A stretch of 64,000 bases of DNA from NCBI GenBank assembly GCA_900542055.1, contig UQMA01000001.1, positions 8,079-72,078 of the forward strand, in the 5' to 3' direction. The notes beneath the pieces are model-generated. The model did not search any database. It had not been told where the DNA came from and saw only the letters and a list, made by a program, of their open reading frames with translations. Origin of the DNA: an uncultured Azospirillum sp. (GTDB lineage: Bacteria; Pseudomonadota; Alphaproteobacteria; RF32; CAG-239). Positions 4,710-38,545 of the stretch are shown here, piece after piece. The position numbers and the translations under genes were made by a program. Numbering within the stretch: position 1 is the stretch's first letter; every line of letters begins with the position of its first letter.

Positions 4710-4720
4710 AGGAGAAAAAT

Positions 4721-5797: not shown

Positions 5798-5800
5798 AAT

Positions 5801-6625
5801 ATGCTTCTCTCTTTGCGTGATACTGTTAACTTTTACGGTCTTATGGCCGATAAATCTCTCGGACAAAACTTTCTTCTTGATTCAAATATTACCGACAAGA
5901 TTGTTCGGTTAAGCTTGAGCCATCAGGGGTTGAAGGATTTCAGCGCTTATAATATGATTGAAGTCGGCCCTGGTCCGGGAGGATTAACCCGATCTGTTTT
6001 AGAACAAAATCCTTTATCTTTGACCGTAATTGAAATGGATTCGCGTTGTGTTCGGATTATGGAAGATCTGAAAAATGAAACGGATTGTCCGATGAATATT
6101 GTAAACGGCGATGCTTTAGCTTTTACCCCAAGTAAAAATATTTCTTCTCCGCGACAGATTATCAGCAATCTGCCTTATAATATATCCGTACCTTTATTAA
6201 TAAAATGGTTGGAAGAAATAAAAAATTATTCAGCTTTAACTCTGATGTTTCAAAAAGAAGTTGCCGAAAGAATAATGGCCTCCACCCGCTGCAAAGATTA
6301 TGGGCGCGTATCTGTTTTAGCACAGCTTAGCTGTAAAATCGAAAAATTAATGGATTTAAATCCGGAATGTTTTACGCCTGCGCCGAAAATTTGGTCAAGC
6401 GTTCTGCTTTTCCGCCCGCTTGACAAGCCTATTACTCAAGAAGAAAGAACAAAAATAGAAAAAATAACTTCTCTTGCTTTTGGACAAAGACGGAAAATGC
6501 TGCGTCAAAGTTTGAAATCTTTGCCCGATATACTAGGCAAACTTGAACAGCTTCAAATTGCTCCGACAGCACGTGCAGAAGAACTAACACCGCAGCAATT
6601 TTTGGATTTAGCGCATTTATATTAA
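5801..6625 (+). CDS. rsmA: 16S rRNA (adenine1518/1519-N6)-dimethyltransferase RsmA/KsgA
   Basis: LGQNFL, EVGPGPGGLT and NLPYNIS motifs. Confidence 0.9.
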   Translation: MLLSLRDTVNFYGLMADKSLGQNFLLDSNITDKIVRLSLSHQGLKDFSAYNMIEVGPGPGGLTRSVLEQNPLSLTVIEMDSRCVRIMEDLKNETDCPMNIVNGDALAFTPSKNISSPRQIISNLPYNISVPLLIKWLEEIKNYSALTLMFQKEVAERIMASTRCKDYGRVSVLAQLSCKIEKLMDLNPECFTPAPKIWSSVLLFRPLDKPITQEERTKIEKITSLAFGQRRKMLRQSLKSLPDILGKLEQLQIAPTARAEELTPQQFLDLAHLY

Positions 6626-6711
6626 TTTTTGTCAAATTTTGTTGATTTATCTTCCAGACAATGCTATACAAAAATTACTGAATATTATTAATCAATTAAA
6701 ATTTAAAACTT

Positions 6712-7257
6712 ATGCATCAAAAAGACAGTTACAAAGTTTTAGCCCAAAAGTTGGGTATAAAACAAATGAGCTTAAAAGATTGCAAGCTCTCAGACGGCAA
6801 AATTTATGTTGAATATTTCAAACAAGTATTCAAACAAATAAATCGCGACATTCTGGCAAACAAGTACAACATCAATCCTACCGATGAGTTTTCAAACAAA
6901 TCTAAATCTCCTTGGAGTTATCTCAATTCGGAAGCAACCTTGCTTGATTTTGCCCGTTTGCTCGCCATTCCTGCCAGCCGCAGCGCCGCCAATATCCGCG
7001 CTCAGTGCACCAGACCGCGAATAAGCAAACAAATGCTTACTGTTTTGCTTGCCGACCAGCTTGAAAAAGAGCCTCAGGAAATTGATCTCGATATGCAAGT
7101 TCGCCAAATTCGCCTGCCTATTGCAAATTATAACAAACATTCATGGGTAACTTTTATCCGTTGGTGCGAACAAGCGGGGTTCAGCGGACATCCGGAAGAT
7201 CTCAATCAATTGGCTGAGATTAGTGTTAATCAACTTTTTGATTATTGGGTTAGATAA
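6712..7257 (+). CDS. Hypothetical protein (181 aa)
   Basis: Clean ORF followed by a terminator. No family recognised. Confidence 0.45.
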   Translation: MHQKDSYKVLAQKLGIKQMSLKDCKLSDGKIYVEYFKQVFKQINRDILANKYNINPTDEFSNKSKSPWSYLNSEATLLDFARLLAIPASRSAANIRAQCTRPRISKQMLTVLLADQLEKEPQEIDLDMQVRQIRLPIANYNKHSWVTFIRWCEQAGFSGHPEDLNQLAEISVNQLFDYWVR

Positions 7258-7278
7258 CATAATTGTGAATCTACCTAC

Positions 7279-7309
7279 AAAAAAACTCCCTTAAACGGGA
7301 GTTTTTTAC
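7279..7309. terminator. Bidirectional hairpin terminator (actccc-ttaaac-gggagt) with an A-run on the left and a T-run on the right
   Basis: Between the convergent genes 6712..7257 (+) and 7313..8650 (-). Confidence 0.7.
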
Positions 7310-7312
7310 TAT

Positions 7313-8650
7313 TTAAGCATATTCAGACCTTGAAAACAGATTCATAAAGCGTCGCAATCCTGAAACTTGTTTTTCCTGCGGTTGCTGTTGCCTTGCTTCT
7401 GTCTGGCGTGCTTCCTGATTTTGCTGTTTTACGGTTGCAGCCACATCTTCACATTGAAAATGGCGGGCAGCAAAATCATAATGCGGAGTCGATTTTTCGC
7501 CGCGCATTCCTGCCAATTCTTCTCTTCGCTGCTGCAAACGCTCATTATCTTTGCGCATTCCCTCAACAATATCAGCTCGAGCTAAACTTTCGGCGTTTCT
7601 TCTTTCACGAAAAGCTGCTATTCTTTCACTGATAGCGGAATGTCCCGCTGACATTGATGCTGTCAGATTTTCCATACCTGTATGATTTTCTGGCAGATCC
7701 GCTTGCGCCGTCGGTTTGCCGGCTGTTTTCTGCGCTGAAGCGCTGTTTTGTTGCTGTTTTTGCAACTGCTCCTCTCGCAACTGATTGTCTAATTGCTGAA
7801 GCTCTTTATCATTCAATTGCTCAAATTGATGTTTGAAACATTTTTCGGCATATTGGCTGGTATGAAAAACTTTTACTTGTTTATTAATGCACCACCCCAA
7901 TCCGCTGTTTACGCTTTCGCCGTTTCCGCCGGTATACGTAGCCTTTCCATTTTTATCAACATTTGCTCTCACACAATGCCAGCCGGAAGCTGTGTTGTTG
8001 GCAACGCCTGTTCTGATAAACAACAAATCACCATCTTTCAGCTTTGGATTCCCTTTTTTATCAAGAGCAACTTGTCCATTAAGACGAACATAGTCCGAAA
8101 CTTTGTTTCCGTTTGTATCCATAAAGCCGTTTTCACCATATTTTTTTATTGCCGACGGACAGCTTCTGGCTTCTTCGCAACGCAGACTATCCCTCGGACA
8201 TACTGGATTTTTACCATGTAATGCTTGAAAATTATTTTCAGTTTTTAAATAAAGCGGATTCGCAAAAACTTTTGATTCAGGAACATCCTGTTCCAAATTC
8301 TGTCTTAAATCTTCACCAATTTCCTTATTGGCTTTATTCATGGCATCGAATTGAATGGCCACGCAATAATTGGTTGCCAATCCTTTCAACCCAAATTCAG
8401 CGCCGTATGTACTGCAGGCATATCTTTTACGTTCCGTATCCGAACTTTTGTTACGGGGATATTTTCTTTGAACATCCCGCACCGATTGAGTAACGATTTC
8501 GCCCTGGCGCGTTGTAAATTCTTCCGTTTTTGCTTTCGACAAACGGTCGACCATTGCCGCACGTTCTTCCGCGGACAATTCTGTTTCTTGTTTTTCCGTT
8601 TGTTTTTCTTTCGGTTCTTCGGGAACTTCAGTTAATTCTGCTTCAGACAT
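7313..8650 (-). CDS. Hypothetical protein, Glu/Gln-rich with coiled-coil ends and a Cys/Gly/Trp-containing central domain (445 aa)
   Basis: No signal peptide and no recognised family. The centre has GWHCVRANVDKNGKATYTGGNG and GLGWCINKQ motifs. The C-terminus is Q-rich (LQKQQQNSASAQ). Confidence 0.5.
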   Translation of the reverse strand: MSEAELTEVPEEPKEKQTEKQETELSAEERAAMVDRLSKAKTEEFTTRQGEIVTQSVRDVQRKYPRNKSSDTERKRYACSTYGAEFGLKGLATNYCVAIQFDAMNKANKEIGEDLRQNLEQDVPESKVFANPLYLKTENNFQALHGKNPVCPRDSLRCEEARSCPSAIKKYGENGFMDTNGNKVSDYVRLNGQVALDKKGNPKLKDGDLLFIRTGVANNTASGWHCVRANVDKNGKATYTGGNGESVNSGLGWCINKQVKVFHTSQYAEKCFKHQFEQLNDKELQQLDNQLREEQLQKQQQNSASAQKTAGKPTAQADLPENHTGMENLTASMSAGHSAISERIAAFRERRNAESLARADIVEGMRKDNERLQQRREELAGMRGEKSTPHYDFAARHFQCEDVAATVKQQNQEARQTEARQQQPQEKQVSGLRRFMNLFSRSEYA

Positions 8651-10469: not shown

Positions 10470-10596
10470 TTAATAATAAAGCCCATAACTTTAATTTCAC
10501 ACGCAGGACGGCGGACACTCTAAGTTTTCGCTCCGGTGCTCTTAGCAAAGAGCCGAATGCCTGCGGAGGTTTAACCGGAAAACAAAGGATTATAAA
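10470..10596 (+). promoter_or_regulatory. Structured, GC-enriched 5' leader of rpsB (possible S2 autoregulatory element)
   Basis: Long-range complement cgcagg...cctgcg and a local hairpin gctctt-agcaa-agagc immediately upstream of the rpsB SD. Confidence 0.35.
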
Positions 10597-16845: not shown

Positions 16846-16922
16846 TGGCGTCGACGAGAGGACTCGAACCTCCCACCCACAGTTTAGGAAACTGTTGCTC
16901 TATCCTGATGAGCTACGTCGAC
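16846..16922 (-). tRNA. tRNA-Arg (anticodon CCT)
   Basis: Reverse complement folds as a cloverleaf: GTCGACG acceptor, anticodon loop TTCCTAA, T-arm GGTTCGAGTCC, 3' CCA encoded. Confidence 0.85.
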
Positions 16923-20216: not shown

Positions 20217-21191
20217 ATGACCACTATTAACGAAATTGATTTTTCAGATATTTATATCACACCGGATCACACGGCATACATTCCCGACAACCGCACGCCG
20301 AACGGCTTAACGCGGTTAAAAGCAGATGATTTCAGTTATTTTTTTGAAAAAATTGAAAAAAATTATGATGGACAAAACCCGAGTTATTCTATTTTATACA
20401 ATAAAATATTTTACCGTATTGAACGCAGTATGACAATATACGGCGTTCAATATTGCGCACGAAAAATGCCTCGAGAAGTGCCTGGTTTTTCAAATTTAGG
20501 TTTTCCTTTAGAATTAAGAAAATATTTGCTTTCACTCAGCAACACGGCCGGCCTTATTTTATGGTCAGGTCCTACCGGAGCCGGCAAAACCACCGCTATT
20601 TCATCATTGATGAAAGAATATTTGGTAACCGAAGGAGGTTTTGCCTACACAATCGAAGATCCGTCCGAAATGCCTTTAGACGGCACTTATAATGCTGTTA
20701 ACGGAAGTTTAGGATTGTGCAAGCAAACGCAGCCGGTCAACGGCAATTGGGGAGAATGCCTGAAATCGGCGCTCCGTTCTAAACCGCGCTTTATTATGGT
20801 CGGCGAAATCCGTACTCCCGATACAGCCAGTGAGGTTTTGCGTGCTTGTACTTCAGGACACTTGGTTTTATCAAGTATTCACGCCAACAATGTTGCCGAT
20901 GCAATCAACTCCGTAATCAAATACGCTGCCTCAACCGGTATGACCGAAGAACTCGCTTATGACTTGTTTTCGCGCGGCATGCTGGCCGTTTTGCACCAAA
21001 CTCTTTCAGGAATAAAAAATAAAATGCCGCAAGTCAGCTACTTATTTGCTAATCCTGATACCACACAAGGCGATCAGGTTCGCGCTATTATCAAAACCGG
21101 AAAGCTGAATCTTGCGACTTCTATCGATACACAGCGTAGCCGTTTGAGTTTAGGCAAAGAACTCTTCCCAAAACTACATGTAACAGACTAG
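20217..21191 (+). CDS. PilT/GspE/VirB11-family secretion ATPase with an atypical N-terminal region
   Basis: Walker A GPTGAGKTT. Asp box region FIMVGEIRTPDT. His box GHLVLSSIHANN. Confidence 0.7.
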   Translation: MTTINEIDFSDIYITPDHTAYIPDNRTPNGLTRLKADDFSYFFEKIEKNYDGQNPSYSILYNKIFYRIERSMTIYGVQYCARKMPREVPGFSNLGFPLELRKYLLSLSNTAGLILWSGPTGAGKTTAISSLMKEYLVTEGGFAYTIEDPSEMPLDGTYNAVNGSLGLCKQTQPVNGNWGECLKSALRSKPRFIMVGEIRTPDTASEVLRACTSGHLVLSSIHANNVADAINSVIKYAASTGMTEELAYDLFSRGMLAVLHQTLSGIKNKMPQVSYLFANPDTTQGDQVRAIIKTGKLNLATSIDTQRSRLSLGKELFPKLHVTD

Positions 21192-21721
21192 CCTTTTTCA
21201 GCTTTAAGCTGATACATATATTCGATAACATCATCGCTGTCCCATCTAACACTGCCGCGAATACGCCCTATTTCTTGGCTTTCGCGGCTGACTAATACGC
21301 TCACCGGCGATGAAAAAATCCCCAATGCCGAAGCCAGCTGCTCTTTTTCATCCACATAAATTTCAAGATTATCTGCCTCGAACCGCTGCAAAAAGCGATG
21401 TTGCTCATCAAAACCGCCGTTCCACTCTCCTTTAGGCGAAATCATAATAACTCTGATACCGTCATTACGGGTTTTCTTCGAAAAACTGCTGAGGCTTTTA
21501 AGCTCTTTAATACAAGGCAAACAATAACGCGACCAAAAAACCGCTATAACAAAGTTTCCGGAAAAACTATCCAATTTTACCTTGTTTCCGCTCTCTCCGA
21601 TAATTTCCTTTTGAGGAACATCACGTGAAAATGCGTAAATATTAGCCTTATCTTTGGCGGCGGCATTTACCGCAAAAACCAAAAATAATAAAATCAGCGC
21701 TATTTTTATATTTATTTTCAT
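21188..21721 (-). CDS. Periplasmic thiol:disulfide oxidoreductase (TlpA/ResA-like thioredoxin fold)
   Basis: Signal peptide. WSRYCLPC (CxxC) motif. Confidence 0.75.
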   Translation of the reverse strand: MKINIKIALILLFLVFAVNAAAKDKANIYAFSRDVPQKEIIGESGNKVKLDSFSGNFVIAVFWSRYCLPCIKELKSLSSFSKKTRNDGIRVIMISPKGEWNGGFDEQHRFLQRFEADNLEIYVDEKEQLASALGIFSSPVSVLVSRESQEIGRIRGSVRWDSDDVIEYMYQLKAEKG

Positions 21722-21819
21722 CTTTTATTTAATAACTGTGTTTTATTTTTTGTATTTAATCTGTTTTAGGATAATATATAGCCATTACCGAAAAACATAC
21801 AAGCAAAAGGTAAAAAAAT

Positions 21820-21954
21820 ATGCAGAAACTGAATCAGATTGTATTGGCTGTTTTACTAATTGCAGCAGTTATAACCACAAGCAGCTGTGGCAAAATCTCC
21901 GCTCCTTCGGCTATTGAAGGCAGCGGTTATCCTCACAGTTATCCGCGCAACTAA
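21820..21954 (+). CDS. Small lipoprotein (44 aa), not in the ORF track
   Basis: MQKLNQIVLAVLLIAAVITTSSC|GK... is a lipobox-like signal. SD aagg precedes it. It ends 12 nt before the vWA gene. Confidence 0.4.
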   Translation: MQKLNQIVLAVLLIAAVITTSSCGKISAPSAIEGSGYPHSYPRN

Positions 21955-21966
21955 GGATTAGTACCG

Positions 21967-22659
21967 ATGAGTGCAGAAAACAATTTTATTGACGAAATGA
22001 TACCATATGTCGAATTTGCCGACAATGCCAATGAACGAACACCATGCGTTTTGGTGTTGGATTGTTCAGGCTCAATGCGGGGAGAACCCATAAAACAGCT
22101 TAACGTCGGATTGAAAGCTTTGGAACGCGAACTGAAAGAAGACATTGATGCCAGTTCCCGTGTTCAGCTCTTAATTATAAAAGCTTTCGGCAAAGACGAA
22201 ACCGAAGTGTCATCAGATTGGATTGACGCCATGAATTTTACCGCTCCGGAAATGGTAGCCGGCGGATTAACTCCTCTCGGCAAAGCTATGGAATTGGCTT
22301 TACAAAAAATAGAAGAACAAAAATGCCTCTACGACAGCTGCGGTATTACTTCAAAACGCCCTTGGATTTTTTTAATCAGCGATGGAGAACCGACTGACTA
22401 TGACTGGGAATCGGTTGCAAAAAAATGCTGTCAGGCACAAAAAAACAAAAAAGTAGTTATCCATGCTGTTGGCACTGAAGGAGCAAATCTTGAAAAATTG
22501 GCAAAATTCTCATTAATTTCGCCCAAAAGACTCAGCGGACTGAAATTTACGGAATTTTTCTTATGGTTGAGCCGCAGTGTATCCTGCATTTCAAAAGCGG
22601 CTCCAAATGCCTCTGATTTATTGGACGATACCGGAAATTGGGATGAAGAACAACACTAA
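21967..22659 (+). CDS. von Willebrand factor A (MIDAS) protein, TerY-like
   Basis: MIDAS DCSGSM (DxSxS), then T...D(G) in LISDGEPTD. 230 aa. Confidence 0.8.
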   Translation: MSAENNFIDEMIPYVEFADNANERTPCVLVLDCSGSMRGEPIKQLNVGLKALERELKEDIDASSRVQLLIIKAFGKDETEVSSDWIDAMNFTAPEMVAGGLTPLGKAMELALQKIEEQKCLYDSCGITSKRPWIFLISDGEPTDYDWESVAKKCCQAQKNKKVVIHAVGTEGANLEKLAKFSLISPKRLSGLKFTEFFLWLSRSVSCISKAAPNASDLLDDTGNWDEEQH

Positions 22660-23395
22660 TAATCACATAAAAGTATTGTCGGCCTGCGTCACCGGACCTA
22701 TGCATAAAATCAGGCAAATGCCTTGTCAGGATTATTGCCGCCATTCAACTCGAGGCGATAATTTTGTCGCCGTGCTCTCCGACGGCGCCGGTTCCGCAAA
22801 ATATGGACGCATCGGTGCAAAAATACTTTGTGATACCTTAATAGACCTTTTGCCCAATGTTCCTTTCCGCGATATAAAAACCTCAATTATAAATTCCGTT
22901 GAAGTTGCCCGTGAAAAACTTTTATTTCATCGCCTGAATTCGCGCAACAATCATCGCGGACTGATGGCTTTTTCGGCAACTTTAGTCGGAGTTGTTTATC
23001 ATAAAAACCACGGTATATTTTTTCATATAGGGGACGGAGCCGCATTAGCTTTTACGGGCAGCAATTTTTCCGAATATGTAGCTTCCAAACCCGAAAATGG
23101 TATTTTTTCCTGCGAAACATATTTTTACACAATGGATGATTGGCGCGACTGCCTACGTTTTACAACTTTCGAAAAAGCTCACACCATAATGATGATGAGT
23201 GACGGAGTAACCGGATTTTCATTTTCCTCCGACTATAAAAACATAGAACCGCGTTTTTTGTTGCCGATAGACAGATTTTTAAGTAAAGAACCTATAAAAA
23301 GCCGCGCCCGCCGCGCATTATACAACACGCTCGGCACACCGCAGGCACAAAAAATAAATCCCGATGATAAAACATTTTTGTGGGCAAAACTATGA
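22643..23395 (+). CDS. PP2C-family Ser/Thr protein phosphatase (PP2C_2-like)
   Basis: The start MKNNTNNH overlaps the vWA stop by 17 nt. Motifs SDGAGSAKYG, FHIGDGAALAF, MMMSDGVT. Confidence 0.75.
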   Translation: MKNNTNNHIKVLSACVTGPMHKIRQMPCQDYCRHSTRGDNFVAVLSDGAGSAKYGRIGAKILCDTLIDLLPNVPFRDIKTSIINSVEVAREKLLFHRLNSRNNHRGLMAFSATLVGVVYHKNHGIFFHIGDGAALAFTGSNFSEYVASKPENGIFSCETYFYTMDDWRDCLRFTTFEKAHTIMMMSDGVTGFSFSSDYKNIEPRFLLPIDRFLSKEPIKSRARRALYNTLGTPQAQKINPDDKTFLWAKL

Positions 23396-24870
23396 ACGGA
23401 CAGGAAATAAAATATAATGCCGTTTACGGAGACGGTTCTTTTGAACAAATTACTCTGGGCGAGCTGATCAACAAAGGCGGCGCCGCCGGAAAAATTGTTG
23501 AAGTGAAAGAACACCCGCAACTGGTTGCAAAAATTTTTCACAGCTTAGCCAAAAGCAGCACCAACCGCGAAAAACTGCAAGCTATGCTGCTCAACCGTCC
23601 GGCTTTTTCGCCGGCTTTGAAAAACGGCAAAGAATTTTTGGCCGATGACGGAAAAAAATATATTCAAATTGCATGGCCGGAAGCTATTCTGGAAAATGAA
23701 GAAGGGTTTTGCGTCGGCTATTTAATGCCTCGCATTGAACTGAATCGTGCCGCCTCATTAGACCATTTTATGCAGCGCGCAACCAGACAAAAACTAAAAC
23801 TTCCGGAAAATTACGAATATCGGATTCGCATCGCCTGCAATCTAAGTTCCATGGTCGCTGCATTACATGAAAAAGGACATTATATTGTCGATTTAAAACC
23901 TTCAAACGTTTATGTTTATAAAGAAAGTATGCTTATTTCCATGCTCGATTGCGATGGTTTTTCGATTTTGGGCGACAAAGCACGTTATCCTGCCGAATTT
24001 GTAAGCGAAGAATATATCTGCCCCGAAGGCATGGAACAGGGATGTGACGAAATGGGAGAAGAGCAGGATAAATTTGCTCTGGCTGTAATTATCTTCAAAC
24101 TTCTGAATAATGGTATTCACCCTTTTTCGGGAACGCCGCGCAAAAACAATTCCGCCCCTCTGACCATACAGGAAAGAATAGCGCAAAATCATTATGCTTA
24201 TGGTTCATGGGCTGATTTATATCAGGCTCCGCATCCATATTCCATCCATGATTATTTTGCAAAAGACACCCTCGAACTTTTTGATCGCGCCTTTGTCCGC
24301 GGTCTCAAGCGTCCGAGCGCACAGGAATGGGAACAGCACCTGCGGAAACTGATAGCCAATCTGCGCCACTGTAAAAAGAACCGCAACCACGTTTATTTTA
24401 CTTCCAAAGGCTGCGGGTTGTGCATAATGGAAGAAAAAATAAAAGCCAATCTCAGCGATATAAAAAAACAATTTCAAAATCCCAAAACTGTACGCGGCAT
24501 GGCCGTTGACAATTTGACACCTGAAAAAATAGCACAAAACAAAAACTTACAGCTAAAAAAACTTAAAACAGTCAATCAAATAAGCGCTGTTGTCATCGTG
24601 CTTTATATGATATTTTGGACTATGCTTTATCCGATACTCAGTCCGATTGCCTCCCAAATAGTTCACTTGGGCTTCGGATTGCAAATGATTTGTTTTATTT
24701 TGCTCATGAGCTTTATATATCACGGATTAAAAAAATTTTCCACCAGAGTACCTTTGTTGAGCCATCCGGCCGTAACGGCAGCATTATTTGTTTATTCGCT
24801 GTTTTGCACAGTCATAACTTTATTGGCTATAAACGACCTTCCCGTTGAAATGTTGATGTTAACAAAATAA
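23392..24870 (+). CDS. Hanks-type Ser/Thr protein kinase with a C-terminal Cys cluster and three C-terminal TM helices
   Basis: ATGA overlap with the PP2C stop. Gly loop GGAAGKIVEV, Lys VAKIFH, catalytic loop HYIVDLKPSN, DCDGFS (DFG-like). Then CKKNRNHVYFTSKGCGLC and three hydrophobic helices. Confidence 0.8.
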   Translation: MNGQEIKYNAVYGDGSFEQITLGELINKGGAAGKIVEVKEHPQLVAKIFHSLAKSSTNREKLQAMLLNRPAFSPALKNGKEFLADDGKKYIQIAWPEAILENEEGFCVGYLMPRIELNRAASLDHFMQRATRQKLKLPENYEYRIRIACNLSSMVAALHEKGHYIVDLKPSNVYVYKESMLISMLDCDGFSILGDKARYPAEFVSEEYICPEGMEQGCDEMGEEQDKFALAVIIFKLLNNGIHPFSGTPRKNNSAPLTIQERIAQNHYAYGSWADLYQAPHPYSIHDYFAKDTLELFDRAFVRGLKRPSAQEWEQHLRKLIANLRHCKKNRNHVYFTSKGCGLCIMEEKIKANLSDIKKQFQNPKTVRGMAVDNLTPEKIAQNKNLQLKKLKTVNQISAVVIVLYMIFWTMLYPILSPIASQIVHLGFGLQMICFILLMSFIYHGLKKFSTRVPLLSHPAVTAALFVYSLFCTVITLLAINDLPVEMLMLTK

Positions 24871-24938: not shown

Positions 24939-26336
24939 TTGTTAGATTTAAAACCGATTATGATTTCCGGCAAAGAAGTCTTGCCTCTTATTGAAGGAGG
25001 AAAAGGCATAAACGCCAGTGATGGCCGTAGCAGCGGTGCTTGGGCACATGAAAACTGTGTAGGCACTTTTTCTGGTGTAAGTCCGGATTTTTATGATGAA
25101 AAAGGAAATGTCGTTGCCGAGATTTTCACCAGAAAAACTCGTGCGGAACGCCATCAAGAAATGATTGAAATGGCTATTAAAGGCGGCATTGCACAAGCCG
25201 AAGTCGCTCACGAAATCTCAAACGGCAACGGACGCATCCACATGAATATGCTATGGGAAATGGCAGATTCGCAAGCCGTTCTGGAAGGCGTACTTTCTAA
25301 AGCAAAAGGACTTATCAACGGCATTACATGCGGTGCTGGCATGCCTTATCATCTCGGAGAATTAGCTACAAAATTCGGAGTTTATTACTACCCTATTGTA
25401 TCATCGGCACGCGCTTTTAATATTTTATGGAAACGCGCCTATAACCGTTTTACAGAATTTTTAGGTGGAGTAGTTTACGAAGATCCATGGCTGGCAGGCG
25501 GACACAACGGTTTGTCAAACGCCGAAAATCCTGAAAAACCGGAAACCCCGTACAATCGCATTGTGGAACTGCGCCGTTTAATGAATAGCTATGGTTTGAA
25601 CGCAATTCCTATTATTTTGGCCGGTGGAATTTGGTCATTAAAAGATTGGGAAAGCTATATTAACAATCCAGATATCGGAAAAATTGCTTTTCAGTTCGGA
25701 ACAAGGCCGATGATTACAAAAGAAAGCCCAATAAGCGAAGCTTGGAAAAAAGTAATGATGCACGTCAGAAAAGGCGATGTCATATTGCAGCGTTTCAGTC
25801 CGACAGGTTTCTTTTCTTCTGCGATAAAAAACACTTTTCTCGAAAAGCTGATTTTGCGCAAAAACGGTGAAATAGCCTTTAAAACACAAGCTGAAGGAGA
25901 ATATTCGGAACCTTTGAAAATTAATGATCATAAAACTGTTTTCATTAAATCGGCAGACAAAGAAAAAGCTATGAACCAAATTAACGCCGGTTTAACCGAA
26001 ATCAAAGAAACGCCGGATGAAACGGTTGTATTTATGACACCGGAAGACTGGGAACAAATGAAAGAAGACCGTAAAAACTGCGTAGGCTGTTTGTCACAAT
26101 GCCAATTTTCGACATGGTGCGCATCATCGCCAACTAAATCAACTGGAAAAATTCCGGATCCCCGCACTTACTGCATTCATAAAACCTTATACGAAGTCGG
26201 ACACGGCGGCAGCGTAAAAGACCATTTGTTGTTTGCAGGACATCAAGTTTACCGTTTTGCCACGGATCCGCTTTACCGCAACGGATGCATTCCGAGTGTG
26301 AAAGAGTTGATTGACCGCATTAAAAACGGCGAATAA
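24939..26336 (+). CDS. TIM-barrel flavoprotein of the nitronate-monooxygenase/FabK-like family with a Cys-rich C-terminal extension (tentative)
   Basis: GGKGINASDG, ILAGGIWSLKDW, C-terminal CVGCLSQCQFSTWC. Family assignment is by motif resemblance only. Confidence 0.4.
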   Translation: MLDLKPIMISGKEVLPLIEGGKGINASDGRSSGAWAHENCVGTFSGVSPDFYDEKGNVVAEIFTRKTRAERHQEMIEMAIKGGIAQAEVAHEISNGNGRIHMNMLWEMADSQAVLEGVLSKAKGLINGITCGAGMPYHLGELATKFGVYYYPIVSSARAFNILWKRAYNRFTEFLGGVVYEDPWLAGGHNGLSNAENPEKPETPYNRIVELRRLMNSYGLNAIPIILAGGIWSLKDWESYINNPDIGKIAFQFGTRPMITKESPISEAWKKVMMHVRKGDVILQRFSPTGFFSSAIKNTFLEKLILRKNGEIAFKTQAEGEYSEPLKINDHKTVFIKSADKEKAMNQINAGLTEIKETPDETVVFMTPEDWEQMKEDRKNCVGCLSQCQFSTWCASSPTKSTGKIPDPRTYCIHKTLYEVGHGGSVKDHLLFAGHQVYRFATDPLYRNGCIPSVKELIDRIKNGE

Positions 26337-26346
26337 ATATAATAAA

Positions 26347-26378
26347 TAAAAACCTCCGATTTTCATCGGAGGTTTTTA
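26347..26378. terminator. Hairpin aaacctccgat-tttc-atcggaggttt with T-run; bidirectional
   Basis: Between convergent genes. Confidence 0.8.
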
Positions 26379-26393
26379 TTTAACTGCGATAAA

Positions 26394-34309: not shown

Positions 34310-35614
34310 TCACTTCTTGCCATAGTAAAGAACATAGCCAATTGCAGAATAGACGTAAGAAATCTTTCCGAAGCCGATTGTCGAAACAAATTGCAAGTCC
34401 ATTTGCTCATGATTTTCCTGCGAATACCAATCTTTTTTCAAAGAAACTGCTATATCTGCTCCAGAATATTGCAATGCCGGCATTTCGTATTCAAAACCAT
34501 TTTTTGCATAAACAGCTTTTTCATACATAACACCAAACACGTAGTTTACGCCCTCATTGGCAGTGCTTTTAACATTCAGGCGGTATATTCGCTCATACGT
34601 ATTTATGGTCATGTCCCCCTCAGTTCTACTCTTGTCCAGAGCATCGCTGTATTCAGGACTGCCGATAACAAGATCCGCAAAGGCAATTTTGCTTTTAGCC
34701 CCAAGTGAAAAATTTACGTAAGAATATTCTGAAGGCATATTCTTAAGCAACACTTCCTTAGTTACGGTTTTAGTTCCGCTTTCCGACCAAGTTTCTTCAA
34801 TCTTTATCCAAGATTTTGAAACACCGGTCTTCTTTTCAAGATCATACGAAACAAGCTCAACACCTGAATCAACAACCTTTTGCGAAACCAAATAATCATC
34901 CTTAAGTTCTTTCTTAAGAACGACTTCGGCATTAACAGCATATTCTTTGCCGTTAAACACAACTGTAAGCGAATGTTTATACAGCTTTTGCAAGTAGTTT
35001 TTACCATTTTCTTTACTATTGTCCAAATCAGATAAACTGCCGCCGTTATCCCTTATTTCAGAATATTTATGATAAGGCATAACAACTTTGGTAACACCAT
35101 CGTTATAGACAGCCACCTGATAAGGCAACACAAATTCAATGGCAAACGCACCACGGTTAACCGTGTACACCAACGCGGAATCAATAACCGACACAAATTT
35201 TTGAACGGCGTGTTTGTTTACAGCCAATTCTCGATAGTCCGTAGCGGACACACCATCCGACAACTCAAAGCTTTTCACCTCGAAAATCGACGAATAGTTT
35301 TCAATGTTGTTAGTCAGCTGAACTGAAATTTTATTTCCTTCAGCAGAGCTGCTCGCTCTGGTTTTTGGCTGAGCTTTAGAAGTGCTGCCGTCGGCAAAAA
35401 GCTGCGACACAACAATCCAAGACTCATAACTCAAGGAAGTTCCTTCAGTTCCGTTACTTACTGCAGTTACCTCTTCAGCGGTACCTGGGTCAACCACTTC
35501 GCTTTTGATCACCCGGTCAGGATCTGCGAAAAACTCACTTTCTTTGCTGCAAGCAACAAAGAGCGTCATCACTGTGCTGAGCACTAATGCTGACAAGATA
35601 CTTTTTGTCTTCAT
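34310..35614 (-). CDS. Lipoprotein, hypothetical (434 aa)
   Basis: Lipobox LFVAC|SK. No family recognised. Confidence 0.55.
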   Translation of the reverse strand: MKTKSILSALVLSTVMTLFVACSKESEFFADPDRVIKSEVVDPGTAEEVTAVSNGTEGTSLSYESWIVVSQLFADGSTSKAQPKTRASSSAEGNKISVQLTNNIENYSSIFEVKSFELSDGVSATDYRELAVNKHAVQKFVSVIDSALVYTVNRGAFAIEFVLPYQVAVYNDGVTKVVMPYHKYSEIRDNGGSLSDLDNSKENGKNYLQKLYKHSLTVVFNGKEYAVNAEVVLKKELKDDYLVSQKVVDSGVELVSYDLEKKTGVSKSWIKIEETWSESGTKTVTKEVLLKNMPSEYSYVNFSLGAKSKIAFADLVIGSPEYSDALDKSRTEGDMTINTYERIYRLNVKSTANEGVNYVFGVMYEKAVYAKNGFEYEMPALQYSGADIAVSLKKDWYSQENHEQMDLQFVSTIGFGKISYVYSAIGYVLYYGKK

Positions 35615-35760: not shown

Positions 35761-38357
35761 TTAGTAAGCTAATCCCATCAAATTGGCATTATAGCAGCCG
35801 GTGCACAGCGTTGAGCCATTCCAGTTAGGATCAAAATCACTATTGCAATCTCCTTTGCATTTTCCTCCCGTGCTGCATGGATTATAAGTATAATTATACT
35901 TATCGAATTTATAATACCAAATTCCGTTAATAGCCCAATCATCCTCCATTTTATGATAATTGGAACCAAGCCTCAGCAGTCCACCGTTATCACGGTGTCT
36001 AATAGCGCCTCTTCCGCTATCAAAAGAAAAGCTTTTTCCTCCAATTTCTGCTTTACCGCCCCACATGCAAATAAGAGTTTTTGTACTGTTTTCCATTTTA
36101 ATAGGAGCCGCAATAACATTGCTGTTTTCTATATACATTTTCACACCTTCATTAAGCCAACTTGGTTCGTTTATGGTCAAAGTAGACGAATTTCTTACAT
36201 GCACTCCGCGAGCTCTCCATAATACTTCTCCTGAATGTTCAACTGTAGACGCATCACTCAATCCGCCAAACCTGAAATAACTAGCATCTCTTGCCCCGGA
36301 ACCATGTGTTCTTATTGTTGTCGCCGTAATTTCAGAACCAGACAAACCAACATTTATAGAACTCCAAAAATCTCCTACCGATGAATTCGTATTAGCCATT
36401 TTGGAATCAATAAACAATACCGTGCCATCGTCACCATCCCAATTAACATTCTGCCCCCAGTATATGTTACCATTGTACTCGCCATTCGTGTTAATTGTTG
36501 CATTTTTGAATATAACAGTACCGCCAATTCTGAAATTAAAAGGTGCTGAATATGCCTTTTTACCTGTTATCGGATCATTATAACCCTCACCAAAAAGGCT
36601 ATTAGTTAAAAATCCTATTCTTCCTGATAAGGTCAGAATTTTTCTCGCATTTACGATAATTTCATTCACCCAATCGCCATGAAGAAACTTATGATAGCCT
36701 TCATCTCCAACTTTCACCTTTTCAGGATATAGAACTGAAATAATACCAACATTGTGCCATTCATGGTCGGCGTCTATAATAAAGTTTTCGGCAAAACCGC
36801 CTTGTTTGTCCTTTGTATTAGTTGCATAAAACTCTATCGATATATCAGAAAGATCACGATTCAAAAACGTATTATCTTTATTGATGTTATTGCCGTTAAA
36901 TTTCATTACCGGACGGTCCCAAATATAACCTTTATCGCTGGAGTCCCTGCATCCTGCAAACATCAAGCTACCATCGGAATATTTCATATTTGTATTGCCC
37001 AACGCCCACATGCCATTGATCGAAGAATAAGAAACTTTATTGCCGATATGTTCCCAAGAACCCCTGTTGGTATTCATAGAAGATTTAGGCAATGTTATAT
37101 TTTCCGTAATATACAAATGTTTGTTGCCGCTGCTGTCTGTTCTCACAAAACCGACCACGCCGCCTTTATCACCAACCATTGATGTGTCTTGCGTTAAATA
37201 TCCTTTTGAAAAAGCTCTGCGCACTTCCTGTTCGCATGGAAGCTTACAGGTGTAATAATACAATGCGTTATCATCATTCCCCGGACATACCTCATAGGTT
37301 CCGACGAAACCATCCACTGTACTGCAGCTTGCGCCTTCTCTCGGCTTTGTAGACATTGTGCTGGTATAACCATGGCCTACACACCAACTAGCCTTATCAA
37401 ACACGCATTTATACAATGCCGGATTTGTCGGATAAGGACACTGTTCACCCAAAATACAATTATAAGAAGTTAAATATTCATATTTCTTCGTATCAGGATT
37501 ATACACTTGATTTTTTGTTCTGCAATTATGCTGCATTGAGCAATCGGTATGCTGAAAACCTGTGTGCTTTTTGTTGGCTACAGTGGTTCCCAAGCTATCT
37601 CCGTCTTCTTCTTCATCATAGGTTCGGCAGGCTTCTTCAGCTGTTTTGCATCTGGAATAATATTCGCGCTGCGAATTACTGTCTATACAAGTCGACGCGC
37701 CGATAGCCGGACCATATTCACAGCTGGCATGCTCATAAACCGCTCTGTCGCAATAACATTTGCTATAAGTCTCCCCAGCATCATCTGTGCATGACGCCGA
37801 CAGTGTTTGATTATTTTTACACTTGTTGCCTTTATCAGTATAAATAGCTCTGTCGCATGTACAGGTTTTATACTTAATGGTATCTGTAGTTCCATCATTC
37901 AACATACAATAACCGCCGCCCGGCTGGCAATTGTTTTGCTTGGCATAATCCGAAGTTACTCCGTACTCATCAGGACATTTGCAAGCATAACGGGTGCCGC
38001 ATTTGCCAAATATTGTTTGTCCCTTAATTACTCCGCCGACAGCAGTTGTATCTACTTCCAAAGGATAGATGCAGCCTTCATAGCGAAATTTCGGAGCGCA
38101 GCATTTTATATAAGAGCTCTTGTAAGGACAGTTATATTTGAAATAACCGTCTAAGCAGGATGTTGTTTTGCTGTCAGCATAGCCCTCGTTTTCACAAGCG
38201 GTATCATTCGGATCAACGAGGGGATTTGCAGGAAAATTGCCGCCGCTGCCGCAATTTTCATCGGTAGCGAAGCAAACTCTAGCCTGCGAATCGGTACAAA
38301 AAAGCGCACCGCATAGCACAGCAGTGAGCATAAATATAGCAAAATTACGTGTTTTCA
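35761..38357 (-). CDS. Large secreted Cys-rich protein (about 865 aa). N-terminal ~400 aa is dense in Cys; C-terminal half is Gly/Asn/Ser-rich and beta-rich
   Basis: Signal peptide MKTRNFAIFMLTAVLCGALFC. Recurring CxC and CxxC pairs. No recognisable catalytic motif. The ORF-track start at 38415 is an extension. Confidence 0.6.
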
Positions 38358-38545
38358 TTGCTCTTCCCCTTAAAAAGCTTCTTACACTTATGTAAATGTA
38401 AAATAATAAAAACAAAGCGCACTGCGGCTTTGCGGCACTAATCGACAGATAACCCCCTATCGATTGTTTAAAAGTTTAACATACAAAAAAATAAAACACA
38501 ACAATTTTTGCGCGTTTTTTATAAATCATCAGTAAACTGACAGCT

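What the first reader, a model, noticed from the sequence alone, without database searches (positions are those of the whole stretch)
21820..24870. Variant TerY-P-type module: small lipoprotein, vWA (TerY-like), PP2C phosphatase and membrane-anchored Ser/Thr kinase
Four co-directional genes are packed with overlapping stop/start codons: the vWA and PP2C genes overlap by 17 nt, and PP2C and the kinase share an ATGA. The vWA protein has an intact MIDAS (DCSGSM). The phosphatase has the PP2C_2-type SDGAG and GDGA motifs. The kinase keeps the catalytic Lys, the DLKPSN loop and a DxDGF motif. This matches the TerY-P triad proposed from comparative genomics as a phosphorylation switch and later reported as an anti-phage defence system. 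Two things depart from the usual triad. A 44-aa lipoprotein gene sits immediately upstream. The kinase ends in a Cys4-like cluster (C-x14-C-x2-C) followed by three TM helices, so the kinase/phosphatase pair is tethered to the membrane. Finding this module in what looks like a reduced, host-associated genome is notable. An NMO-like flavoprotein gene follows 68 nt downstream with no intervening terminator and may be co-transcribed.
Basis: partly seen in the sequence, partly recalled or inferred. Interest (0 to 1): 0.72.

Follow-up and report, generated by a model that had tools for sequence, protein, structure and literature searches.

The report
Core lipoprotein-linked YegL/PphC/YegI phosphorylation operon
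This is a real four-gene operon in an uncultured gut alphaproteobacterium: a tiny lipoprotein plus the metal-binding protein, phosphatase and membrane kinase trio that E. coli carries as YegL/PphC/YegI, and here it behaves like a strongly conserved housekeeping signalling unit, not a mobile anti-phage system.

Summary
All three proteins are homologues of E. coli K-12 YegL, PphC and YegI in the same order, so this is a TerY-P-type triad.

Two claimed departures are not departures. The kinase's C-terminal zinc knuckle (C-H-C-C, invariant in an 18-sequence family alignment) and a following membrane segment occur in nearly all, and most, of the 150 best family representatives. YegI is a proven inner-membrane protein.

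The anti-phage reading is not supported. PADLOC TerY-P models do not match, the neighbours are housekeeping genes, and the block is syntenic in at least 80 gut and rumen alphaproteobacterial species.

Three features are new:
- A lineage-specific 40-53-aa lipoprotein (mature CGK…GSGYPHxYP) always sits 4-28 nt upstream of the vWA gene behind a conserved promoter-like element.
- The kinase has a short three-helix C-terminus.
- The vWA protein is exceptionally constrained: 87% median identity where the kinase is 58%, at equal synonymous divergence.

The downstream "NMO" gene is a FabX-like flavoenzyme with its own promoter-like element and is not always adjacent.

Verdict: new variant of a known kind, moderate interest.

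The parts
21750..21777 (+). Promoter-like element (TTGTAT-N16-TAATAT) upstream of the lipoprotein gene, in the 98-nt divergent intergenic region
   Evidence: Read from the sequence. Comparable -35/-10-like hexamers, followed by ACAAG..AAAGG and the ATG, are visible upstream of the lipoprotein gene in the related loci. It falls below the threshold of the automatic scan, so it is an inference.
21820..21954 (+). Small lipoprotein gene: 44-aa precursor, Cys23 lipidation site, 22-aa mature peptide CGKISAPSAIEGSGYPHSYPRN
   Evidence: ORF. A hydrophobic signal segment is present. Orthologues were found in 76 distinct sequences, mostly with a canonical lipobox L[SAT][AG]C, and C-G-[KR] (Lys in >90% of an aligned subset) and S-x-Y-P-H-x-Y-P are invariant. 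The invariant residues are encoded by several synonymous codons each. The stop lies 4-28 nt before the vWA start in all 76. There is no Pfam, NCBIfam or PADLOC hit. A profile search finds 338 clusters; the 120 listed are all 39-70 aa and unnamed.
21967..22659 (+). Cytoplasmic TerY/YegL-type vWA protein (230 aa). MIDAS residues are D32, S34, S36, T102 and D139. A C-terminal W-L-S202-x-S204-x4-S209 motif is also present.
   Evidence: Pfam VWA. It is 41% identical to E. coli YegL, E 3e-50. It is 28-30% identical to the vWA genes of plasmid ter clusters. The MIDAS residues and the three serines are invariant across 13 sequences from four phylogenetic groups. No hydrophobic segment is present. Median identity in distant relatives is 87% against 58% for the kinase, at equal synonymous divergence.
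22643..23395 (+). PphC-type PP2C Ser/Thr phosphatase (250 aa); overlaps the vWA gene by 17 nt
   Evidence: PF13672 PP2C_2, 4.4e-33. BLASTP to E. coli PphC gives 1e-12 over the full length, and the Asp aligned with PphC D46 is retained (D46N is the catalytic mutant in bioRxiv 10.1101/303594).
23392..24870 (+). YegI-type Hanks Ser/Thr kinase (492 aa): kinase domain residues 1-325, CHCC zinc knuckle, linker helix, three C-terminal TM helices. The start codon shares ATGA with the PP2C stop codon.
   Evidence: Pfam Pkinase. BLASTP to E. coli YegI gives 1e-27 over 351 residues, including the knuckle. K47, D167, N172, D186, D188, P211-E212, D226 and R307 are invariant or nearly so. The AlphaFold model has pLDDT 82 and matches PknB-like kinase domains.
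24370..24423 (+). Zinc knuckle codons: C327-x5-H333-x7-C341-x2-C344
   Evidence: All four ligands are invariant in an alignment that spans the lineage, distant representatives and E. coli YegI. A CxxC at the equivalent position occurs in nearly all of the 150 best family representatives.
24568..24846 (+). Three-helix membrane anchor (residues about 393-485); predicted topology N-in, C-out
   Evidence: Hydropathy peaks. AlphaFold helices at 377-410, 412-425, 428-450 and 459-480. Lys/Arg lie before TM1 and between TM2 and TM3, and none lie in the TM1-TM2 loop (sequence). Full-length matches to this C-terminus come only from the lineage.
24939..26336 (+). FabX-like FMN flavoenzyme with a C-terminal Cys cluster (465 aa). 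It is a neighbour and probably a separate transcription unit.
   Evidence: Pfam NMO. The best solved relative is H. pylori FabX (7E1Q), at 5e-22 over residues 4-303 with the GGH catalytic motif kept. A promoter-like ATGCAA-N16-TGnTATATT lies in the 68-nt gap and is conserved in near relatives. The gene is moved upstream on the other strand in L036 and L067, and is not downstream in L095, L111 and L118.
26343..26382 (.). Terminator-like hairpin (18 pairs) between the convergent FabX-like and Bax1-I genes
21188..21721 (-). Divergently transcribed TlpA/ResA-like periplasmic thioredoxin-fold protein (177 aa, signal peptide, CLPC motif); a conserved neighbour
   Evidence: Pfam AhpC-TSA/Redoxin. An N-terminal hydrophobic segment is present. 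It sits next to the lipoprotein gene in almost every locus; L030 is the exception.

Best explanation
The locus is a chromosomal, vertically inherited member of the YegL-PphC-YegI (TerY-P) family of Ser/Thr phosphorylation switches. In one lineage of uncultured gut and rumen Alphaproteobacteria it has been extended by a dedicated small lipoprotein.

Gene content and transcription:
- A promoter-like element drives one transcript encoding a 44-aa prolipoprotein, a cytoplasmic vWA/MIDAS protein, a PP2C phosphatase and a Hanks kinase.
- The kinase is held in the inner membrane by three C-terminal helices, with its catalytic domain and zinc knuckle in the cytoplasm.

Proposed mechanism:
1. The kinase autophosphorylates on self-association. 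This step is shown for E. coli YegI and inferred here.
2. The phosphatase resets the kinase. This step is shown for E. coli PphC and inferred here.
3. The vWA protein is the output. It is a metal-dependent adaptor whose partner binding is switched by phosphorylation, possibly on the family-invariant C-terminal serines S202, S204 and S209. This step is inferred.
4. The 22-residue mature lipopeptide lies on the periplasmic side and most likely feeds an envelope signal into the kinase's membrane helices, because the kinase has no extracytoplasmic domain of its own. This is the weakest step.

In this lineage the module behaves as a constrained core signalling device, not as an accessory phage-defence cassette. 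The FabX-like gene downstream is a housekeeping neighbour.
For: Family membership:
- Domains are confirmed by Pfam.
- All three proteins match E. coli YegL, PphC and YegI.
- The same order and tight junctions occur in E. coli and in Azospirillum, Sinorhizobium and Granulicella plasmids.
- Catalytic, MIDAS and zinc-ligand residues are invariant.
- The kinase fold is confirmed.

Biochemistry of the family:
- YegI autophosphorylates with second-order kinetics and is a membrane protein (bioRxiv 10.1101/819920).
- PphC dephosphorylates YegI (bioRxiv 10.1101/303594).

Core status:
- 80 species-representative genomes, plus further metagenome contigs, keep the order TlpA-like(-) | lipoprotein, vWA, PP2C, kinase.
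- The flanks are housekeeping genes.
- Synonymous divergence is equal across the four genes (0.45-0.49). Amino-acid identity is 87% for the vWA protein, 58% for the kinase and 56% for PP2C.

Lipoprotein as part of the operon:
- It is present in every complete locus.
- It lies 4-28 nt before the vWA gene, behind a conserved promoter-like element.
- It is under protein-level purifying selection.
- It stays attached when the TlpA-like or FabX-like neighbours are lost or moved.
- It is absent from outgroup triads.
Against: - No experiment exists for this lineage.
- The substrate of any YegI-type kinase other than itself is unknown.
- Phosphorylation of the vWA protein has never been shown.
- Linkage of the lipoprotein to the triad could reflect only shared transcription in a lineage whose local gene order is generally conserved. 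M20, SH3 and the PilT-like gene also stay nearby.
- Prevalence across all genomes of the lineage could not be measured, so 'core' rests on synteny and selection, not on a presence/absence census.
- The promoter is inferred by eye and falls below the scanner's threshold.
Confidence: 0.6

Rival explanations
1. It is an anti-phage defence system of the TerY-P type, as validated by Gao et al. 2020. It senses infection and triggers a phosphorylation-dependent response.
For: The domain triad is the same as in the validated system (PMC7699616, PMC11090510). Related triads sit on plasmids next to methyltransferases and a GIY-YIG nuclease. They are also embedded in CoCoNuT restriction systems (PMC11090510).
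Against: - PADLOC models do not recognise the phosphatase or the kinase, and give only 14 bits for the vWA protein. The same models also miss E. coli YegL/PphC/YegI, so the validated family is a separate branch.
- The validated kinases carry an OB fold where this one has a zinc knuckle and TM helices (PMC11090510).
- No defence or mobile genes are nearby.
- Synteny is stable in at least 80 species, and the vWA protein is extremely conserved. This is the opposite of the patchy, fast-turnover pattern of defence cassettes.
Confidence: 0.12
2. The triad is an ordinary YegL/PphC/YegI switch, and the small lipoprotein is functionally unrelated. It would be a structural or outer-membrane lipoprotein that merely shares a promoter, or one that works with the divergent TlpA-like oxidoreductase.
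For: - The lipoprotein has no detectable homology to anything known.
- Outgroup triads work without it.
- Local gene order is broadly conserved in this lineage, so adjacency alone is weak evidence.
- The TlpA-like gene is its divergent neighbour in nearly all loci.
Against: - The lipoprotein stays fused to the vWA gene with a 4-28 nt spacer in all 76 sequences, even where the TlpA-like gene is missing (L030) or the FabX-like gene has moved.
- The lipoprotein and the short three-helix kinase C-terminus were seen together in every in-lineage locus examined and in none of the outgroup loci.
- The mature peptide has no second Cys that a thiol oxidoreductase could act on.
Confidence: 0.28
3. The phosphorylation module regulates a neighbouring function. 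One candidate is the FabX-like enzyme (membrane lipid unsaturation). The other is type IV pilus activity through the nearby PilT-like ATPase.
For: - The FabX-like gene follows the kinase with no terminator in most loci.
- A PilT-like ATPase gene lies within about 1.5 kb upstream in most loci.
- In L001-L003 a bundlin/PilS/T2SSF pilus operon lies just downstream.
Against: - The FabX-like gene has its own promoter-like element.
- It is moved or not adjacent in several relatives that keep the four-gene core.
- The PilT-like gene changes side and distance.
- Neither association is seen in outgroup triads.
Confidence: 0.1

Closest known systems
E. coli K-12 YegL / PphC (YegK) / YegI
   Same: - All three proteins are homologous (41%, 22% and 26% identity; E 3e-50, 1e-12 and 1e-27). 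The gene order is the same and the vWA/PP2C genes overlap.
- The MIDAS motif, the PP2C catalytic Asp and the CHCC knuckle are all shared.
- The kinase is membrane-anchored with a cytoplasmic catalytic domain (bioRxiv 10.1101/819920).
   Different: - YegI is 648 aa, with two TM helices and a further cytoplasmic C-terminal region that gives a weak, sub-threshold helix-hairpin-helix hit. The kinase here is 492 aa and ends in three TM helices.
- YegI lacks the canonical DLKPxN loop, which this kinase retains.
- E. coli has no upstream lipoprotein and no FabX-like neighbour.
- The E. coli locus is reported as barely expressed (bioRxiv 10.1101/303594). The locus here is under very strong purifying selection.
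TerY-P triad as defined by comparative genomics (Anantharaman, Iyer and Aravind 2012, as summarised in PMC11090510)
   Same: A TerY-like vWA protein, a PP2C phosphatase and a Ser/Thr kinase fused to a C-terminal zinc ribbon. The triad is proposed to be a metal-sensing phosphorylation switch.
   Different: Those triads are typically associated with tellurite-resistance, restriction or other conflict systems and are often mobile. This one is a core-genome operon with an added lipoprotein. The original paper was not available in the library.
TerY-P anti-phage system (Gao et al. 2020; PADLOC/DefenseFinder)
   Same: The same three domain types (PMC7699616).
   Different: - The kinase C-terminus there is an OB fold, not a zinc ribbon (PMC11090510).
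- The PADLOC models do not match at useful significance.
- The genomic context here is not defence-related.
TagQRST-PpkA-PppA-Fha1 threonine phosphorylation pathway of the Pseudomonas aeruginosa H1 type VI secretion system (from my own knowledge, not tested here)
   Same: A lipoprotein-dependent periplasmic input feeds a membrane Hanks kinase that is opposed by a PP2C phosphatase, and a vWA domain takes part.
   Different: In that system the vWA domain is the periplasmic part of PpkA, the substrate is an FHA protein, and the lipoprotein TagQ is much larger. No FHA domain is found in the operon proteins here. No type VI secretion domains were seen among the window proteins scanned.
Helicobacter pylori FabX (comparison for the downstream gene only)
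   Same: Best solved-structure match, with the FMN TIM-barrel region aligned and the GGH catalytic motif kept. A C-terminal Cys cluster is present.
   Different: The protein here is about 100 residues longer. The Cys spacing is C-x2-C-x3-C-x6-C against C-x3-C-x3-C-x11-C in FabX, and the cluster region is not aligned (PMC8626469).

Membership tests
TerY-P / YegL-PphC-YegI phosphorylation triad | TerY-like vWA protein with an intact MIDAS motif | tested here: met
   Pfam VWA above its cut-off. 41% identity to YegL. 28-30% identity over more than 80% of its length to the vWA genes of plasmid ter clusters. D32, S34, S36, T102 and D139 are invariant.
TerY-P / YegL-PphC-YegI phosphorylation triad | Adjacent PP2C-family phosphatase | tested here: met
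   PF13672 at 4.4e-33. Full-length match to PphC at 1e-12.
TerY-P / YegL-PphC-YegI phosphorylation triad | Ser/Thr kinase fused at its C-terminus to a zinc ribbon | tested here: met
   Pkinase hit. Hanks fold confirmed. C327, H333, C341 and C344 are invariant, including in YegI.
TerY-P / YegL-PphC-YegI phosphorylation triad | Tightly linked gene order vWA, PP2C, kinase | tested here: met
   17-nt and 4-nt overlaps. The same order occurs in E. coli and three plasmids.
TerY-P / YegL-PphC-YegI phosphorylation triad | Kinase autophosphorylation that is reversed by the phosphatase | not testable with these tools
   Shown only for the E. coli proteins (bioRxiv 10.1101/819920 and 10.1101/303594).
TerY-P anti-phage defence system (Gao 2020 / PADLOC) | Significant matches to the system's protein models | tested here: not met
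   vWA protein: TerY model at 14.2 bits, E 0.0057. Phosphatase: no hit. Kinase: only PD-T4-6, MkoA and PglW kinase models.
TerY-P anti-phage defence system (Gao 2020 / PADLOC) | Kinase with a C-terminal OB fold (as described in PMC11090510) | tested here: not met
   The C-terminus is a zinc knuckle plus three helices.
TerY-P anti-phage defence system (Gao 2020 / PADLOC) | Accessory, patchy distribution in defence or mobile contexts | tested here: not met
   Housekeeping neighbours. Syntenic in 80 species genomes. Strong purifying selection.
TerY-P anti-phage defence system (Gao 2020 / PADLOC) | Protection against phage | not testable with these tools
   Needs a phage-challenge assay.
Bacterial lipoprotein (Lgt/LspA substrate) | Signal peptide with a basic n-region, a hydrophobic core, a lipobox and an invariant Cys | tested here: met
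   The window sequence ends its signal peptide in ITTSS-C. Most orthologues have L[SAT][AG]-C, and the Cys is invariant in 76 sequences.
Bacterial lipoprotein (Lgt/LspA substrate) | Actual lipidation and membrane location | not testable with these tools
   Needs biochemistry.
FabX-type FMN/[4Fe-4S] acyl-ACP dehydrogenase-isomerase (downstream gene) | NMO/FabK-like TIM barrel with the catalytic His | tested here: met
   phmmer 5e-22 to 7E1Q over residues 4-303, with GGH aligned. H182 is the catalytic His in FabX (PMC8626469).
FabX-type FMN/[4Fe-4S] acyl-ACP dehydrogenase-isomerase (downstream gene) | Four-Cys cluster-binding C-terminal subdomain | tested here: inconclusive
   A Cys cluster (CVGCLSQCQFSTWC) is present, but it has different spacing, follows an insertion of about 100 residues, and lies outside the aligned region.
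T6SS threonine phosphorylation pathway (PpkA/PppA/Fha1) | FHA-domain substrate and linkage to type VI secretion genes | tested here: not met
   No FHA domain in the operon proteins. No type VI secretion domains among the window proteins scanned.

The most novel reading that the evidence does not exclude
In this gut alphaproteobacterial lineage a TerY-P triad has been domesticated into a core envelope-to-cytoplasm signalling system. The input would be a dedicated 22-residue lipopeptide that acts on the kinase's three-helix membrane bundle. The output would be a vWA protein under purifying selection as strong as that on core housekeeping proteins. This would imply a conserved cellular partner and an indispensable, non-defence function for a family whose role is still unknown even in E. 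coli.
Probability: 0.25. Interest if true: 0.65.

Novelty: new variant of a known kind. Interest (0 to 1): 0.42.

Why it matters
The YegL/PphC/YegI (TerY-P) triad is widespread, but its physiological role is unknown. In E. coli its expression has not even been detected, and one divergent branch has been tied to phage defence.

A lineage where the triad is fixed in the core genome gives three things:
- It argues that the family has a non-defence function.
- It suggests where the input comes from, namely the envelope, through a dedicated lipoprotein.
- It points to the vWA protein as the key constrained component.

It also gives concrete test targets: the invariant serines S202, S204 and S209, the MIDAS site, and the GSGYPHxYP lipopeptide.

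Finally, it adds an unannotated small-lipoprotein family that gene callers often miss.

Tried and rejected
- **NCBIfam and PADLOC.** Searches of all proteins gave no specific family for any member of the module.
- **Rfam.** A scan of the whole window found only four tRNAs and the rpsB leader, and nothing in or near the module.
- **Lipoprotein identity.** It has no Pfam, NCBIfam or PADLOC hit. I considered LptM/YifL from memory. I dropped the idea because the mature N-terminus (CGK-x-S-x-P) does not carry the remembered CG-x-KGPL motif and nothing supports it.
- **SH3 link.** An SH3 gene follows the kinase on a Sinorhizobium plasmid, and an SH3_4 gene lies near the module here. BLASTP shows only generic SH3 similarity (4e-05 over 48 residues), so I did not pursue it.
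- **Recent transfer as the cause of vWA conservation.** Rejected, because synonymous codon identity is the same for the vWA, PP2C, kinase and FabX-like genes.
- **The 2012 paper defining TerY-P.** It could not be read. Its content is cited through PMC11090510.
- **Genome scan.** It returned only in-lineage loci. Outgroups had to come from the metagenome scan, the plasmids and E. coli.
- **vWA structure.** No structure prediction was run for the vWA protein.

Full report
**What is in the window.** Between 21820 and 24870 there are four co-directional ORFs on the + strand:
- a 44-aa ORF at 21820-21954
- a 230-aa ORF at 21967-22659
- a 250-aa ORF at 22643-23395, counted from the ATG that overlaps the previous gene by 17 nt
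- a 492-aa ORF at 23392-24870, whose ATG shares ATGA with the previous stop codon

Gene calls on identical public contigs give the same products. The 44-aa gene is called in some assemblies and missed in others. Pfam assigns VWA (above its cut-off), PP2C_2 (4.4e-33) and Pkinase (above its cut-off) to the three larger proteins, and NMO to the 465-aa ORF that starts 68 nt downstream. The only correction is that the cysteine cluster is C-x13-C-x2-C and includes an invariant histidine, giving C327-x5-H333-x7-C341-x2-C344.

**Where the window comes from.** The kinase is identical to a protein of a MAG labelled 'Azospirillum sp.'. A scan of one genome per species returned 80 loci. All but one come from uncultured Alphaproteobacteria or unclassified proteobacterial MAGs from human gut, rumen, chicken and deer samples, with labels such as 'Azospirillum sp.', 'CAG:495' and 'Candidatus Scatocola'. 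The exception is L007, the 99%-identical best hit, which is labelled 'Bacteroidaceae bacterium'. One relative lies on a 1.89-Mb contig.

**What family it is.** The three proteins match E. coli K-12 YegL (41% identity, 3e-50), PphC/YegK (22%, 1e-12, full length) and YegI (26%, 1e-27 over 351 residues, including the zinc knuckle). In E. coli the genes lie in the same order. The same vWA, PP2C, kinase order with abutting or overlapping genes is annotated on plasmids of Azospirillum, Sinorhizobium meliloti and the acidobacterium Granulicella. The vWA protein also matches, at 28-30% identity over more than 80% of its length, the vWA genes of the enterobacterial plasmid tellurite-resistance clusters. 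This supports the label 'TerY-like'. A published summary defines the TerY-P triad as a TerY-like vWA protein, a PP2C phosphatase and a Ser/Thr kinase with a C-terminal zinc ribbon (PMC11090510). All four sequence-level defining features were tested here and met.

**Residues and fold.** In an alignment spanning the lineage, distant representatives and YegI, the following kinase residues are invariant or nearly so:
- the catalytic Lys (K47)
- the catalytic loop D167-x-K-P-x-N172
- D186 and D188 of the DCDGF motif
- P211-E212, D226 and R307
- the four zinc ligands

An AlphaFold model built from 57 lineage sequences has mean pLDDT 82. It shows a kinase fold that superposes on PknB and other Hanks kinases with target-normalised TM-scores near 0.7. 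In the vWA protein the five MIDAS residues (D32, S34, S36, T102, D139) are invariant across 13 sequences from the lineage, outgroups, three plasmids and E. coli. So are three serines in a C-terminal W-L-S-x-S-x4-S motif. I propose these serines as candidate phospho-acceptors. That is an inference only.

**The claimed departures in the kinase are the family norm.** An exhaustive search of 1.84 billion representatives found 634 relatives at E below 1e-30. Among the best 150, nearly all have a CxxC at about residue 330-340, and most have a hydrophobic segment some 60 residues later. This is followed by C-terminal regions of very different lengths. E. coli YegI is an experimentally mapped two-pass inner-membrane protein with both termini in the cytoplasm (bioRxiv 10.1101/819920). 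Zinc knuckle plus membrane anchoring is therefore the rule. What is specific to this lineage is the short C-terminus made of three hydrophobic helices with no further domain. Hydropathy peaks lie at about 393-415, 419-446 and 457-485, and the model has helices at 377-410, 412-425, 428-450 and 459-480. Lys and Arg lie before TM1 and between TM2 and TM3, which fits an N-in, C-out topology. Full-length matches to this C-terminus come only from the lineage.

**Is it the anti-phage TerY-P system?** The evidence says no.
- PADLOC models give only a 14-bit hit (E 0.0057) of the vWA protein to TerY, nothing for the phosphatase, and only generic kinase models for the kinase.
- As a control, the same models also fail on E. 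coli YegL/PphC/YegI and on the Azospirillum plasmid triad. The validated defence systems are therefore a separate branch.
- The literature describes the validated kinases as carrying an OB fold in place of the zinc ribbon (PMC11090510).
- The genomic context is housekeeping: rpsB with its leader, tsf, dnaJ, a radical-SAM/BATS enzyme, an M20 peptidase, Bax1-I, YgjP, dnaB, grpE, leuS, holA and rsmB. No integrase, transposase or restriction genes were found among the ORFs scanned.

**Conservation in the lineage.** I ran tblastn with the window's proteins against the 80 genome loci. The order TlpA-like(-) | lipoprotein, vWA, PP2C, kinase holds in essentially all of them, even where the outer flanks differ. 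More divergent members recovered from metagenomes (kinase 50-53% identical) keep it too.

The vWA protein is by far the slowest-evolving gene in the neighbourhood. In the 55 most distant genome loci the median identities are:
- vWA 87%
- FabX-like 76%
- PilT-like ATPase 70%
- M20 peptidase 60%
- kinase 58%
- PP2C 56%
- TlpA-like 48%

Among codons that encode the same amino acid, the fraction using the same codon is 0.45-0.49 for all four genes tested. They have therefore diverged for the same time, and the difference reflects purifying selection, not recent transfer. This pattern is unlike that of an accessory defence cassette. It is the most notable result of this analysis.

**The lipoprotein is real and belongs to the operon.**
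- An orthologue was found in every locus that covers the region, giving 76 distinct sequences. It has a basic N-terminus, a hydrophobic core, a lipobox (mostly L[SAT][AG]C) and a mature peptide of about 21-22 residues. The consensus is CGK[VMI]S-x-P-x-P-x-EGSGYPH-x-YP[RK]-x.
- The invariant Ser, Tyr, Pro, His, Tyr and Pro are each encoded by two to four different codons, including both serine codon families. This shows selection on the peptide.
- Its stop codon lies 4-28 nt before the vWA start in all 76 cases. Upstream there is a conserved -35/-10-like pair and a Shine-Dalgarno sequence. In the window this is TTGTAT-N16-TAATAT at 21750-21777.
- The gene stays attached to the vWA gene where the TlpA-like gene is missing (L030) and where the FabX-like gene has moved (L036, L067).
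- A profile search of 5.8 billion proteins finds 338 clusters. The 120 listed are all 39-70 aa, unnamed and without Pfam domains.
- Outgroup triads lack it. These are two metagenome loci, one of which has two tandem vWA genes, plus three plasmids and E. coli.

In the loci examined, the lipoprotein and the three-helix kinase C-terminus occur together in the lineage and in none of the outgroup triads.

**The downstream 'NMO' gene.** Its best solved relative is H. pylori FabX, an FMN and [4Fe-4S] decanoyl-ACP dehydrogenase/isomerase (phmmer 5e-22 over residues 4-303, with the GGH catalytic motif aligned, PMC8626469). It carries a C-terminal cysteine cluster, but with different spacing and after an insertion of about 100 residues. 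It is highly conserved.

No terminator-like site separates it from the kinase gene. However, the gap contains a promoter-like ATGCAA-N16-TG-n-TATATT that recurs in near relatives. The gene sits upstream on the opposite strand in L036 and L067, is separated by an insertion in L041 and L062, and is not downstream of the kinase in L095, L111 and L118. I therefore treat it as a housekeeping neighbour, not as part of the module.

**How it most likely works.**
- Shown for homologues: YegI autophosphorylates with second-order kinetics and sits in the inner membrane, and PphC removes that phosphorylation (bioRxiv 10.1101/819920 and 10.1101/303594).
- Shown here by sequence: all catalytic, metal-binding and zinc-binding residues are intact. 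The four genes form one tight unit. The vWA protein and the phosphatase show no hydrophobic segment in the hydropathy scan, consistent with a cytoplasmic location. The kinase is anchored by three helices. The lipoprotein is exported.
- Inferred: the kinase and phosphatase form a switch whose output is the vWA protein. The vWA protein would use its MIDAS site to bind a conserved partner and may be phosphorylated on the invariant C-terminal serines. The lipopeptide would supply the extracytoplasmic input to a kinase that has no sensor domain of its own.

I give about 0.9 to family membership, about 0.6 to the overall switch model and about 0.3 to the lipoprotein-as-input step.

**Rivals.**
- Anti-phage defence (about 0.12). 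It is contradicted by the model searches, the architecture, the context and the conservation pattern.
- A functionally unrelated lipoprotein that only shares a promoter (about 0.28). This cannot be excluded, because local synteny is generally high in this lineage.
- Regulation of the FabX-like enzyme or of type IV pili through the nearby PilT-like ATPase (about 0.1). It is weakened by the variable position of those genes.

**Verdict.** The finding is a correct identification of a known kind of system. Its stated novelties are only partly right. The real novelties are the lineage-specific lipoprotein, the minimal three-helix kinase C-terminus, the fixation of the module in a core-genome position across at least 80 species, and the exceptional constraint on the vWA protein. 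I rate it a new variant of a known kind, with moderate interest.

Noticed in passing
window 20217-21191 (+); L001 9277-13458: A 324-aa PilT-like T2SSE ATPase gene lies just upstream of the block. It stays within about 1.5 kb of the block in most related species. In L001-L003 a different T2SSE ATPase, two bundlin/PilS-like pilins and a T2SSF gene lie immediately downstream of the FabX-like gene. This hints at a recurring neighbourhood with type IV pilus genes.
   Followed up: partly
window 24939-26336 (+): The 'NMO' protein is FabX-like but about 100 residues longer than H. pylori FabX. Its Cys cluster is CVGCLSQCQFSTWC. It is 72-95% identical across the lineage and starts with TTG. It may be this lineage's unsaturated-fatty-acid enzyme.
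   Followed up: partly
window 21967-22659 (residues 200-209): The C-terminal motif W-L-S-x-S-x4-S of the vWA protein is invariant from this lineage to E. coli YegL, an Acidobacteria plasmid and other Alphaproteobacteria. This makes the serines candidate phosphorylation sites.
   Followed up: partly
L170, L172, L005 against L171, L004: The 44-aa lipoprotein gene is called in some public assemblies and skipped in others that carry identical or near-identical DNA. It is a small gene that annotation pipelines miss systematically.
   Followed up: yes
L007 (CAVIWQ010000016.1): The species-representative contig that is 99% identical to the window is labelled 'Bacteroidaceae bacterium', while all other relatives are labelled Alphaproteobacteria. 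The contig is probably mis-binned or mislabelled.
   Followed up: no
L088 (S. meliloti plasmid) 1405-8568: A related triad sits directly downstream of a His-Xaa-Ser radical-SAM system (hxsB, hxsC, hxsA) and is followed by an SH3-domain gene.
   Followed up: partly
L092 1622-3036: An outgroup metagenome locus has two tandem TerY-like vWA genes before the phosphatase and kinase genes.
   Followed up: no
window 34310-35614 (-) and 35761-38415 (-): Two large ORFs (434 and 884 aa) have no Pfam hit at E 0.001.
   Followed up: no
window 10498-10592 (+): An Rfam rpsB leader element lies upstream of the ribosomal protein S2 gene. Four tRNA genes lie at 16849, 30501, 48159 and 51377.
   Followed up: no
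window 26343-26382: An 18-pair hairpin with T/A runs on both sides lies between the convergent FabX-like and Bax1-I genes. It is likely a bidirectional terminator.
   Followed up: no
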